From NCBI RefSeq assembly GCF_009914755.1, contig NC_060941.1: DNA of 64,000 nucleotides; one strand, given 5' to 3'. This DNA comes from the human T2T-CHM13v2.0 reference genome, Homo sapiens. The position numbers and the translations under genes were made by a program. This document shows, piece by piece, positions 40,253 through 41,266 of this stretch; positions within the stretch are counted from its first letter, which is position 1, and each line of letters opens with the position of its first letter. The notes under the pieces are model-generated. The model was given only the letters and a program-made list of their open reading frames with translations. It had not been told where the DNA came from and searched no databases.

Positions 40253-40357
40253 CTAGACTTCGGGCTCCTTGAGGATATTCAGTTTTGTATGTTTGAATAT
40301 CCTCTCACCATGTTCAGCATAAAGTACCATTCTTAATGATTATCCTCAACAAGACAG
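40253..40357 (+). other. SEC14L1: SEC14L1 exon 2 (105-nt 5' UTR exon)
   Basis: Polypyrimidine tract plus aacAG at 40251-40252 (second AG at 40255-40256). Donor CAG|GTAGGC at 40358. Confidence 0.88.
40289..40336 (+). CDS. uORF2 in exon 2 (15 aa, [15 protein letters not shown]; internal in-frame accATG at 40310)
   Basis: ATG at 40289 to TAA at 40334-40336, read directly from the sequence. Confidence 0.55.
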
Positions 40358-41253
40358 GTAGGCTCATTCGATTTTTCTTTCTCACTTTAAATAGGGGAGA
40401 CAGAGGACTGGCAAGTCCAGGTGTGTTTTTAGAGCAATCCGTGTAGGCTGGCGCTAGAGAATGATTATGCACCCATAAGGAGGGCTCCTTGACTGTGAAT
40501 TAGGTGTGAACATTTAACCGATTACTTACGGATATTAGCTATCTGAGGCTAGAGATTTCAGTGGAGCCTGTTTAGCCAGAATACTTGGCATCTCTGCCAC
40601 TCGAAGACAGGTCGCCAAAGCTGTAGTGTACACAGTTAGAAAATAGGAATTGACACGTTTCCTTTGAAGCTAGCTTTTGAGGAGTATTCCATAGTTTGAG
40701 ATACAGTAGTATTTTTTTCCAGTTTTATTTTTGTTTTCCCAGAGCTAATATCTTAACACGAGATCATTTTTATTTGGCTTCTAGTAGAAGTTGTTTAAGA
40801 GAAAATGATCCAAGCATTAATTATATTGGTTATTAGAATAATAGAATCATAACAGTTCATTGCTGGAAAGGACTCAGGTCAGGTCATGTAATGAATGCAG
40901 AGTCCCAGTAAGCCAATGAGAGGATTGGACCCCTCTCACACCAGTACTGTTTGCCTCATTGCATTGGGGCTTTGTCTGCTTTTTCTTATTGTTTAATTAC
41001 CTCCCCCTGCCCTCATGTATTTAAATATCATCTTTTCATTTTTGTGTGCATAGAATTATGACCTATTGTGGTCTCTTTCTGTCGTTAGAGTGTGGTATGA
41101 TGTGTCAGTGCAGACTTACTAATAATTTGTTTCTGCATTGTGGTTACTTATCACATATATTTATGTTTTGCAGGTGTGAGAGGGTTGCTGTTGTATTGCA
41201 ATCATGGTGCAGAAATACCAGTCCCCAGTGAGGGTGTACAAATACCCCTTTGA
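40336..41253 (+). CDS. Spliced overlapping uORF (40336-40357 joined to 41174-41253; 33 aa [33 protein letters not shown]), out of frame with the SEC14L1 CDS
   Basis: ATG at 40336-40338 shares its A with the uORF2 stop (TAATG). It reads across the exon 2/3 junction, passes the main ATG and stops at TGA 41251-41253. Confidence 0.5.
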
Positions 41254-41266
41254 ATTAATTATGGCT
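41204..41266 (+). CDS. SEC14L1: SEC14-like protein 1, first coding segment (exon 3: 41174-41266; 21 codons MVQKYQSPVRVYKYPFELIMA, phase-0 donor)
   Basis: Acceptor ttttgcAG at 41172-41173, ATG in strong Kozak context (atcATGg) at 41204, donor GTAAGT at 41267. The peptide matches the recalled N-terminus (PRELI/MSF1 domain) of SEC14L1. No further coding exon recognised in the window. Confidence 0.95.

What the first reader, a model, noticed from the sequence alone, without database searches (positions are those of the whole stretch)
40253..41266. SEC14L1 exon 2 as a translational-control cassette: UAAUG stop-start uORF relay into an ORF overlapping the main AUG
Seen: uORF2 (40289-40336) ends in TAA, and its last A is the A of a new ATG (TAATG). 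That ATG opens a 33-codon ORF that crosses the exon 2/3 junction, runs out of frame over the SEC14L1 start (41204) and stops at 41253. Together with uORF1 in exon 1, this gives short uORFs followed by an overlapping inhibitory ORF. Established: ATF4 uses a similar layout for eIF2alpha-P-dependent induction, and UAAUG is the termination-reinitiation pentanucleotide of influenza B BM2. Inference: SEC14L1, a reported RIG-I inhibitor, may be translationally gated, with skipping of the 105-nt exon 2 removing the whole repressor module. Caveats: the third AUG has weak context (U at -3), and I see no UGGGA TURBS motif upstream.
Basis: partly seen in the sequence, partly recalled or inferred. Interest (0 to 1): 0.8.

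Follow-up and report, generated by a model that had tools for sequence, protein, structure and literature searches.

The report
Ordinary, already catalogued SEC14L1 upstream ORFs
The short reading frames ahead of the SEC14L1 start codon are real and at least two are translated, but they are already in public catalogues and published stress data show no ATF4-like switch.

Summary
The ORF layout is exactly as described: uORF1 in exon 1; a 15-codon uORF2 with a second in-frame AUG in exon 2; TAATG; and a 33-codon out-of-frame ORF running over the SEC14L1 AUG.

It is not new. The 33-codon ORF is GENCODE Ribo-seq ORF c17riboseqorf167, a replicated "uoORF". uORF1 is a listed translated 14-codon sORF with HLA peptide evidence. 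The uORF2 frame appears only in a non-replicated call, c17norep170.

ATF4-like gating is contradicted in HEK293T cells. With arsenite, translation efficiency fell to 0.11 (Z -1.85; median repression 5.4-fold). With tunicamycin, my renormalised TE was 0.89, against 9.1 for ATF4.

There is no UGGGA motif. A chr11 processed retrocopy shows exon 2 was already spliced in long ago. Exon 2 has since diverged at the neutral rate: 11/105, against 20/181 at four-fold sites and 46/963 at codon positions 1+2. The TAATG and its AUG are shared by both copies; the two uORF2 AUGs are not.

Shuffles give the stop-start overlap in 2.6% of trials, which is unremarkable genome-wide.

Verdict: a constitutively dampening multi-uORF leader, with an incidental TAATG. 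Cross-species alignment could not be run.

The parts
38664..38708 (+). uORF1: 14 codons plus TGA, in exon 1; context G at -3, A at +4
   Evidence: Sequence. Listed as a translated sORF ENST00000436233_79_121 (568 P-sites, 81% in frame, labelled 'mammalia', HLA peptide evidence from three sources) in the Sandmann 2023 supplement.
38661..38668 (+). Alternative exon 1 donor (exon ends at 38661). The uORF1 ATG lies inside the intron side of this splice site (G|GTATGAG), so this isoform lacks uORF1
   Evidence: Hub annotation (other-transcript exon 38576-38661) plus sequence. The isoform built has no uORF1.
40253..40357 (+). Exon 2: a 105-nt 5' UTR exon, 62% A+T, with a tandem acceptor at 40253/40257
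   Evidence: Only two copies in the genome, chr17 and a chr11 retrocopy. Also spliced to an upstream-promoter exon in c17norep170.
40289..40336 (+). uORF2: 15 codons plus TAA; weak context (T at -3, T at +4). TAA is followed in frame by TGA
   Evidence: Its frame and stop are shared with the non-replicated Ribo-seq ORF c17norep170. At 15 aa it falls below the GENCODE length cut-off and is not in the 221-member short sORF set.
40310..40312 (+). Internal in-frame ATG of uORF2 (8 codons to the same stop); the best context within exon 2 (A at -3)
40334..40338 (+). TAATG stop-start overlap
   Evidence: Retained in the chr11 retrocopy. Arises in 2.6% of shuffles.
40336..40357 (+). First block of the 33-codon upstream overlapping ORF (ATG 40336; T at -3, A at +4)
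   Evidence: Corresponds to GENCODE Ribo-seq ORF c17riboseqorf167, GRCh38 17:77142729-77142750, which is window + 77102393.
41174..41253 (+). Second block of the 33-codon ORF: out of frame over the main ATG, stop TGA 41251-41253
   Evidence: Corresponds to c17riboseqorf167 block 77143567-77143646.
41204..41266 (+). SEC14L1 start codon (A at -3, G at +4) and the first coding block
   Evidence: and hub annotation. The open frame continues through 13 exons.
40269..40349 (+). Repeat set inside exon 2. 40269-40281 can pair with 40294-40304 (11/11 bp; the loop holds ATG 40289) or with 40337-40349 (12/13 bp; this arm begins at the TG of ATG 40336)
   Evidence: The fold of exon 2 is not exceptional: MFE -21.2 kcal/mol, z -1.40, with 18 of 200 shuffles folding as well.

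Best explanation
This is an ordinary multi-uORF 5' leader that constitutively lowers SEC14L1 translation. It is not a stress-gated switch.

- Entry: scanning 43S complexes meet uORF1 first. It has an adequate context and its translation is shown.
- Downstream choice: complexes that leak past uORF1, or resume scanning after its 14 codons, are spread over four AUGs. Three lie in exon 2 (40289 weak, 40310 adequate, 40336 weak); the fourth is the strong main AUG.
- Loss at 40336: ribosomes that start at 40336 translate the 33-codon overlapping ORF (translation shown by Ribo-seq). They terminate 50 nt past the main AUG, so they are lost to SEC14L1 (inferred).
- uORF2 route: ribosomes that translate uORF2 terminate 51 nt before the main AUG, and some may reinitiate there (inferred).
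- TAATG: the overlap is most likely incidental. The 40336 AUG is reached mainly by leaky scanning and by reinitiation after uORF1, whose stop is separated from it by 89 nt. A 40S subunit that has just terminated lacks initiator tRNA, and there is no ribosome-tethering motif (inferred from established scanning and reinitiation rules, recalled).
- Real control point: the uORF load is set mainly by which leader is made. The options are the 38661 donor (no uORF1), the upstream promoter (other catalogued uORFs) and inclusion of exon 2.
For: - ORF anatomy and contexts.
- The 33-codon ORF is c17riboseqorf167, biotype uoORF. 'riboseqorf' names mark ORFs replicated across source studies (passage of PMC13010147).
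- uORF1 passed the cut-offs of at least 290 P-sites and at least 70% in frame in 80 human heart samples, with 568 P-sites and 81% in frame.
- PhyloCSF for the 33-codon ORF is -61.96 in primates and -415.45 in mammals, with 0 MS studies. This fits a regulatory or by-product ORF better than a selected peptide.
- No stress resistance: arsenite ribosome-occupancy fold change 0.13 and TE fold change 0.11, Z -1.85, against a median 5.4-fold repression. Tunicamycin RPF 0.74, mRNA 0.83 and TE 0.89, against ATF4 TE 9.1, PPP1R15A 2.4 and MIEF1 1.6, normalised on 14 reference genes (from counts). SEC14L1 has 0 occurrences in the authors' file of significant changes above 2-fold.
- No TGGGA in the 274-nt leader.
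- Exon 2 divergence from the retrocopy is 11/105 (10.5%). Four-fold degenerate sites give 20/181 (11.0%; Fisher p = 1.0) and codon positions 1+2 give 46/963 (4.8%; Fisher p = 0.021).
- Shuffle frequencies.
- In the 46 catalogue rows shown, another gene (EXTL2) also has two Ribo-seq ORFs whose stop and start overlap (AUGA type). Such overlaps are therefore not rare.
Against: - The catalogue labels c17riboseqorf167 'conserved', meaning amino-acid similarity in non-primate mammals. That would fit selection on this ORF. However, 26 of its 33 codons lie in exon 3 and about 16 overlap the conserved coding sequence, which can produce the label on its own. Conservation of the ORF's start-codon structure was 'not_calculated'.
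- The TAATG and the 40336 AUG are kept in both the gene and the retrocopy, so they are old.
- The stop-start overlap arises in only 2.6% of shuffles.
- Both stress data sets come from HEK293T cells and count coding-region reads only. Leader isoform usage there is unknown, and no immune cell or dsRNA/PKR data were examined.
- The retrocopy test has low power (105 sites) and cannot see selection on single codons.
- No outgroup sequence was available, so conservation of the individual AUGs is untested.
Confidence: 0.7

Rival explanations
1. ATF4/GCN4-type delayed reinitiation. After uORF1, ribosomes in unstressed cells reinitiate at the exon 2 AUGs and miss the main AUG. When eIF2alpha is phosphorylated they reload the ternary complex later, skip exon 2's AUGs and start at SEC14L1, so the protein is induced or spared.
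For: - The layout has the two formal ingredients: a translated short 5' uORF, and a translated out-of-frame ORF over the main AUG.
- Bases between the uORF1 stop and each downstream AUG: 42, 63, 89 and 141 nt. These are in the range where reloading time could matter (recalled knowledge).
Against: - SEC14L1 is not resistant in the two ISR ribosome-profiling sets examined: TE 0.11 with Z -1.85 under arsenite, and TE 0.89 under tunicamycin where ATF4 gives 9.1.
- The overlapping ORF's AUG has a weak context (T at -3, A at +4). From recall, ATF4's inhibitory uORF is efficiently recognised.
- Exon 2 shows neutral-rate divergence.
Confidence: 0.07
2. True stop-start coupling. 40S subunits that terminate on uORF2's UAA stay on the mRNA and start at the overlapping AUG. 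A meaningful share of 33-codon-ORF translation would then depend on uORF2.
For: - The overlap is real, is shared with the old retrocopy, and arises in 2.6% of shuffles.
- uORF2 is short (8 or 15 codons), which favours 40S retention (recalled).
- UAAUG couples ORFs in some viruses (title and start of the abstract of PMC2699510; review PMC10275272 by listing only).
- The stem 40269-40281/40337-40349 would be opened by a ribosome finishing uORF2, exposing the AUG (inference).
Against: - No UGGGA tethering motif is present.
- uORF2-frame translation is seen only in a non-replicated call on another transcript. uORF2 is not among the 221 short sORFs that passed the heart cut-offs, whereas the downstream ORF is replicated.
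- Both uORF2 AUGs differ in the retrocopy while the TAATG is kept, so the pair need not be ancestral; polarity is unknown.
- A terminating 40S must reacquire initiator tRNA, which normally takes scanning distance (recalled).
- Exon 2's fold is not exceptional (z -1.40).
Confidence: 0.1
3. ISR sensitiser, the opposite sign to the reader's proposal. Much of SEC14L1 initiation depends on reinitiation over the short 51-nt gap after uORF2, and on avoiding the overlapping ORF. eIF2alpha phosphorylation therefore represses SEC14L1 more than the average mRNA.
For: - Arsenite TE fold change is 0.11 against a median of about 0.185, Z -1.85.
- Tunicamycin RPF is 0.74 and returns to 0.96 with ISRIB.
Against: - Z -1.85 is far below the authors' threshold of 4.
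- The tunicamycin TE change is small (0.89) and rests on my normalisation with only 14 genes and on a column order inferred from ATF4.
- No leader-specific data were seen.
Confidence: 0.1
4. The ORFs matter through their peptides: the uORF1 14-mer or the 33-residue product would be a functional microprotein.
For: - HLA-bound peptides of uORF1 are reported from three sources, and targeted MS transitions are listed.
- uORF1 is labelled 'mammalia'.
- The 33-codon ORF is labelled 'conserved'.
Against: - PhyloCSF is strongly negative and no MS studies support the 33-codon ORF.
- HLA presentation shows translation, not function.
- The 'conserved' label is confounded by overlap with the coding sequence.
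Confidence: 0.03

Closest known systems
GENCODE Ribo-seq ORF catalogue entries for SEC14L1 (c17riboseqorf167, c17norep170) and the 3-15 aa sORF ENST00000436233_79_121
   Same: These are identical objects. Coordinates map exactly with GRCh38 = window + 77102393: 40336-40357 plus 41174-41253; 40253-40336; and the uORF1 start at 38664.
   Different: The catalogues list the ORFs one by one. None of my searches found a text that discusses the TAATG junction or a relay. At 15 codons, uORF2 itself falls under the first catalogue's length cut-off.
ATF4 5' leader (delayed reinitiation under eIF2alpha phosphorylation)
   Same: A short translated 5' uORF is followed by an out-of-frame ORF that overlaps the main start.
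   Different: - The main ORF is not spared or induced under arsenite or tunicamycin.
- The overlapping ORF's AUG is weak.
- Two extra AUGs and a stop sit between uORF1 and it.
TURBS-dependent termination-reinitiation (influenza B M1/BM2 UAAUG, calicivirus VP1/VP2)
   Same: The UAAUG pentanucleotide has its stop and start sharing one A.
   Different: - No UGGGA motif lies upstream.
- The upstream ORF is 8-15 codons rather than a full-length gene.
- No exceptional structure is predicted.
- The features of the viral systems are recalled; I saw only listings and abstract starts.
Hypovirus CHV1-EP713 ORF A/ORF B UAAUG coupling (PMC2699510)
   Same: The same pentanucleotide joins two ORFs (title and start of the abstract seen).
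   Different: That is a viral genome-length mRNA with a long upstream ORF. Only the listing was seen.
KSHV ORF35-37 mRNA with dual short uORFs (PMC3561293)
   Same: Two short uORFs in series steer ribosomes past one start towards another (title and start of the abstract seen; the details are recalled).
   Different: It is a viral polycistronic mRNA in which the bypass serves expression of a downstream gene. In SEC14L1 no downstream beneficiary ORF is known.

Membership tests
ATF4/GCN4-type delayed-reinitiation switch | Short, translated 5'-proximal uORF | tested here: met
   uORF1 has 14 codons. It is listed as translated with 568 P-sites, 81% in frame. Whether it permits reinitiation was not tested.
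ATF4/GCN4-type delayed-reinitiation switch | Downstream inhibitory ORF overlapping the main start out of frame, and translated | tested here: met
   The 33-codon ORF 40336..41253 is out of frame. It is the replicated Ribo-seq ORF c17riboseqorf167.
ATF4/GCN4-type delayed-reinitiation switch | Main ORF translation spared or induced when eIF2alpha is phosphorylated | tested here: not met
   Published HEK293T data: arsenite TE fold change 0.11, Z -1.85; tunicamycin TE 0.89 against ATF4 9.1; not in the list of changes above 2-fold. One cell type only, and coding-region reads only.
ATF4/GCN4-type delayed-reinitiation switch | Conservation of the uORF arrangement across species | tested here: inconclusive
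   - No outgroup genome was available.
- The retrocopy keeps the uORF1 ATG, the TAATG and the main ATG, but lacks both uORF2 ATGs.
- Exon 2 as a whole diverged at the neutral rate.
- The catalogue label 'conserved' for the overlapping ORF is confounded by its overlap with the coding sequence.
TURBS-type termination-reinitiation (influenza B BM2, caliciviruses) | Overlapping or adjacent stop and start codons | tested here: met
   TAATG at 40334-40338.
TURBS-type termination-reinitiation (influenza B BM2, caliciviruses) | Upstream UGGGA motif (18S rRNA-complementary motif 1; recalled definition) | tested here: not met
   There are 0 TGGGA in the 274-nt leader.
TURBS-type termination-reinitiation (influenza B BM2, caliciviruses) | Downstream ORF expression depends on termination of the upstream ORF at that site | not testable with these tools
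   This needs reporters or edited cells.
Translated upstream overlapping ORF (GENCODE 'uoORF') | Starts in the 5' UTR, overlaps the annotated CDS in another frame, and has ribosome-profiling support in more than one source study | tested here: met
   Geometry. Catalogue entry and biotype. Meaning of the 'riboseqorf' name. I did not see the underlying footprints.

The most novel reading that the evidence does not exclude
The exon 2 AUG cluster makes SEC14L1 translation more sensitive than average to eIF2alpha phosphorylation, the opposite of ATF4. Ribosomes that translate uORF2 have only 51 nt to reload before the main AUG, and the UAAUG-linked overlapping ORF takes a further share. In virus-infected cells with active PKR, the RIG-I inhibitor SEC14L1 would then drop faster than bulk protein synthesis, releasing RIG-I signalling. 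Exon 2 inclusion, donor choice at 38661/38714 and promoter choice would set how strong this effect is.
Probability: 0.08. Interest if true: 0.5.

Novelty: already known. Interest (0 to 1): 0.15.

Why it matters
SEC14L1 is described as a competitor of MAVS for the RIG-I CARDs (review PMC5206486, passages seen, citing Li et al. 2013). Stress-tuned translation of it would therefore be of interest for innate immunity.

The evidence here points to something ordinary. Its leader is one of the many human 5' UTRs with translated uORFs. The ORFs are already in reference catalogues, and the available stress profiling shows no sparing or induction.

What this check adds:
- It shows that exon 2 has been part of the mRNA since an old retrocopy formed, yet has drifted neutrally.
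- It narrows the open question to one cheap experiment: leader reporters with and without exon 2 and the TAA, with and without ISR activation.

Tried and rejected
- The search of earlier findings was not open.
- Mudge et al. 2022, the first GENCODE Ribo-seq ORF catalogue, was not held under the DOI or under a recalled PMC id. I used Sandmann 2023, which reproduces that catalogue.
- Paper reading closed, so I did not see the supplements of the expanded GENCODE v45 catalogue (PMC13010147). These may list uORF2 and the 8-codon ORF with their evidence class, and could change the statement that uORF2 has weak support.
- The first attempt at a combined paper search was rejected for a term-syntax error. 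The resent search was mis-specified with min_terms 2: none of the 30 listed papers held SEC14L1, so it gave only general uORF papers.
- 'SEC14L1' plus 'uORF' gave 2 papers, judged irrelevant from titles and abstract starts. 'c17riboseqorf167' gave 0 papers.
- Rfam found only Alu-type SRP/miRNA-like hits at 39908-40166, below gathering scores, and nothing in the exons.
- RNA structure: the exon 2 fold has z -1.40. The whole-leader fold was unremarkable, with mononucleotide-shuffle z of -1.1 and +1.4 for its two parts. I rejected structure as evidence.
- The TE origin of exon 2 was rejected. It is unmasked apart from its first 4 bases (hub table), and there are 2 copies in the genome, the second being the retrocopy. 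A sense Alu ends at about 40186, upstream of the acceptor.
- Polarising the two uORF2 AUG differences between gene and retrocopy is not possible without an outgroup. The collections offered hold no non-human mammal genome, so no cross-species alignment was made.
- I did not use protein searches, structure prediction or complex prediction. The peptides are 8-33 residues with negative PhyloCSF, so these tools would not bear on the question.
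Full report
**1. Observation**

I read the three exons and spliced them in a script.

- uORF1: ATG 38664, 14 codons, TGA 38706-38708.
- uORF2: ATG 40289, 15 codons, with an in-frame ATG at 40310, and TAA 40334-40336.
- TAATG at 40334-40338.
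- A 33-codon ORF from ATG 40336 that crosses the exon 2/3 junction, is out of frame with the SEC14L1 ATG at 41204, and stops at 41251-41253.

Start contexts (base at -3 / base at +4):

| ATG | -3 / +4 |
|---|---|
| 38664 (uORF1) | G / A |
| 40289 (uORF2) | T / T |
| 40310 (uORF2 internal) | A / T |
| 40336 (33-codon ORF) | T / A |
| 41204 (SEC14L1) | A / G |

Bases lying between each stop and the next AUGs in the spliced leader:
- From the uORF1 stop: 42 nt to 40289, 63 nt to 40310, 89 nt to 40336 and 141 nt to the main AUG.
- From the uORF2 stop to the main AUG: 51 nt.

Skipping exon 2 leaves only uORF1. No TGGGA occurs in the 274-nt leader.

**2. Chance**

Exon 2 is 62% A+T. In 20,000 dinucleotide-preserving shuffles of exon 2:
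- 25% had 3 or more ATGs.
- 2.6% had a TAATG/TGATG that closes an ATG-initiated ORF.
- 41% had an out-of-frame ORF running over the main ATG.
- 1.3% had both of the last two features.

This is unusual for a single exon. It is not unusual for a feature picked out post hoc from a genome. In the 46 rows of the Ribo-seq ORF table shown, another gene (EXTL2) also has two catalogued ORFs whose stop and start overlap.

**3. The ORFs are already catalogued**

The supplement of Sandmann et al. 2023 (PMC10032668) reproduces the 7,264-ORF GENCODE Ribo-seq catalogue. I saw its supplement tables, and passages of the main text. It lists the following.

- **c17riboseqorf167.** Biotype uoORF, gene SEC14L1, GRCh38 17:77142729-77142750 plus 77143567-77143646. 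It is labelled 'conserved', with mode of evolution 'not_calculated', 0 MS studies, and PhyloCSF -61.96 (primates) and -415.45 (mammals).
- **c17norep170.** A 51-codon uORF that starts in an exon of the upstream promoter (outside the window) and runs through 40253-40336 in the uORF2 frame to the same TAA. It is labelled 'primatomorpha - young, de_novo_ORF'.
- **uORF1 itself.** It appears in the separate 3-15 aa set as ENST00000436233_79_121, with 568 P-sites (81% in frame), the label 'mammalia', and HLA peptide evidence from three sources.

A passage of PMC13010147 states that 'riboseqorf' names were given to replicated ORFs and 'norep' names to non-replicated ones.

The first catalogue excluded ORFs of 15 aa or fewer, so uORF2 could not be in it. 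uORF2 is also not among the 221 short sORFs that passed the heart cut-offs. Only one SEC14L1 row appears per sheet, and the cut-offs are given.

So translation of uORF1 and of the overlapping ORF has published support. Support for uORF2 is weaker. I did not see the footprints themselves.

No main text found by my searches discusses these ORFs or the TAATG:
- 'SEC14L1' plus 'uORF' gave 2 papers, irrelevant by title and abstract start.
- 'c17riboseqorf167' gave 0 papers.

**4. Stress response**

*Arsenite.* Andreev et al. 2015 (PMC4383229; supplement rows and header, passages) profiled HEK293T cells 30 min after arsenite.
- SEC14L1 coding-region footprints: 297 to 37.5 (fold change 0.13, Z -1.78).
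- RNA fold change 1.2.
- TE fold change 0.11, Z -1.85.
- The median TE reduction was 5.4-fold, and the authors required Z above 4 to call resistance.

*Tunicamycin.* Sidrauski et al. 2015 (PMC4341466; counts, passages) profiled HEK293T cells with tunicamycin, with and without ISRIB.
- I inferred the column order from the ATF4 row.
- I normalised on the 14 reference genes whose rows I had seen.

| Gene | TE under tunicamycin (relative to untreated) |
|---|---|
| SEC14L1 | 0.89 (RPF 0.74, mRNA 0.83) |
| ATF4 | 9.1 |
| PPP1R15A | 2.4 |
| MIEF1 | 1.6 |

SEC14L1 does not occur in the authors' file of significant changes above 2-fold.

Both sets therefore speak against ATF4-like sparing or induction. 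If anything, SEC14L1 is slightly more repressed than average.

Limits: one cell line, coding-region reads only, unknown leader isoform usage, and a small normaliser set of my own.

**5. Evolution, using the only comparator available**

Exon 2 has two copies in this genome: the gene, and chr11:44052688-44052792 at 90% identity.

The chr11 copy is a processed retrocopy.
- It carries exon 1 (long-donor form), exon 2 (40253 acceptor form), exon 3 and ten further coding exons contiguously. That is 12 intron-less junctions.
- So the MANE-type leader with exon 2 was already being made when the copy arose.

I rebuilt the parental mRNA from splice-site-bounded exons, with the frame open, and aligned it to the retrocopy.

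| Site class | Differences / sites | Divergence |
|---|---|---|
| Codon positions 1+2 | 46 / 963 | 4.8% |
| Four-fold degenerate sites | 20 / 181 | 11.0% |
| Exon 2 | 11 / 105 | 10.5% |
| Exon 1 part | 12 / 85 | 14.1% (5 at CpG) |
| Exon 3 leader | 3 / 30 | 10% |

Positions 1+2 mostly reflect decay on the pseudogene side. Exon 2 differs from positions 1+2 (Fisher p = 0.021; binomial tail 0.012) but not from four-fold sites (p = 1.0). As a whole, then, the parental exon 2 has drifted at about the neutral rate.

The test is weak and says nothing about single codons.

The uORF1 ATG, the TAATG with its ATG, and the main ATG are the same in both copies. Both uORF2 ATGs differ (AAG and ATA in the retrocopy). 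Without an outgroup I cannot say which copy changed.

The 'conserved' label of c17riboseqorf167 rests on amino-acid similarity in non-primate mammals. But 26 of its 33 codons are in exon 3 and about 16 overlap the conserved coding sequence. The label therefore does not show that the AUG or the TAATG is conserved.

**6. Mechanism**

- *Shown:* the anatomy; translation of uORF1 and of the overlapping ORF (published catalogues); and the lack of stress sparing in HEK293T.
- *Inferred from standard scanning and reinitiation rules (recalled):*
  - Ribosomes reach 40336 mainly by leaking past three upstream AUGs of weak to adequate context, and by reinitiation after uORF1.
  - Those that start at 40336 end 50 nt past the main AUG and are lost to SEC14L1.
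  - Those that translate uORF2 have 51 nt in which to reload before the main AUG.
- *Reinitiation exactly at the UAAUG:* this is possible after such a short uORF. It is disfavoured because the 40S has no initiator tRNA at that moment and no tethering motif is present.
Stress would mainly reduce reloading before the main AUG. That predicts more repression, which is the direction of the small effects seen.

**7. Comparison and verdict**

The leader works like the very common class of repressive uORF/uoORF leaders.
- It fails the decisive functional test for membership of the ATF4 type.
- It fails the motif test for the TURBS type.
- The ORFs are already in reference catalogues. Only the relay idea appears to be unpublished, and the evidence does not favour it.

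Interest is low.

**8. Left open**

- Cross-species conservation of the individual AUGs.
- Per-codon footprints.
- Leader isoform usage.
- Behaviour in immune cells.
- The content of the expanded GENCODE catalogue supplement, which I could not open because paper reading closed.

Noticed in passing
window 38661-38668: The alternative exon 1 donor (exon ending at 38661) puts the uORF1 ATG inside the intron's 5' splice site (G|GTATGAG). Donor choice therefore switches uORF1 on or off. uORF1 is the best-supported translated uORF of this leader.
   Followed up: partly
window 40269-40349: One 13-nt segment (40269-40281) is complementary to two direct-repeat copies. The first is 40294-40304 (11/11 bp; ATG 40289 sits in the 12-nt loop). 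The second is 40337-40349 (12/13 bp; it begins at the TG of ATG 40336). These are mutually exclusive stems around the upstream AUGs. The fold energy is not exceptional (z -1.40; 18 of 200 shuffles fold as well).
   Followed up: partly
G000:C11:44052603-44054268 (L012:2604-4269): A processed SEC14L1 retrocopy is 5'-truncated at mRNA position 55 and preceded by an Alu. It carries exon 2, a 24-nt deletion in exon 5 and other small indels. Its 3' end was not traced. It is useful as a fossil of the old leader.
   Followed up: partly
window 40249-40260: A tandem acceptor, CAG|CTAG|ACTT, gives exon 2 starts at 40253 and 40257, 4 nt apart. This changes the frame relation between uORF1 and the downstream ORFs, but no ORF content.
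   Followed up: no
window 38664, 40289, 40310, 41204: In the long-exon-1/40253 isoform, uORF1, uORF2 and the SEC14L1 CDS are all in the same frame, separated only by stops. uORF2's TAA is followed directly by an in-frame TGA (TAATGA), a double stop.
   Followed up: no
window 39908-40186: A sense-orientation Alu with a long A tail ends about 65 nt upstream of exon 2's acceptor (Rfam SRP and Alu-derived miRNA-like hits below gathering score). The pyrimidine tract of the acceptor follows it. Exon 2 itself is not Alu-derived.
   Followed up: partly
outside the window (about -9117 to -9046 by the GRCh38 offset): Transcripts from the upstream promoter shared with SNHG20 splice into exon 2 and carry further catalogued Ribo-seq uORFs (c17riboseqorf163, c17riboseqorf165, c17norep170). 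Exon 2 thus serves two promoters.
   Followed up: no
Sandmann 2023 supplement, file 1 part 1 (EXTL2 rows): The EXTL2 5' UTR has two catalogued Ribo-seq ORFs whose stop and start overlap (AUGA type, by coordinates). It is a second stop-start overlap, seen by chance in a 46-row sample of the catalogue.
   Followed up: no
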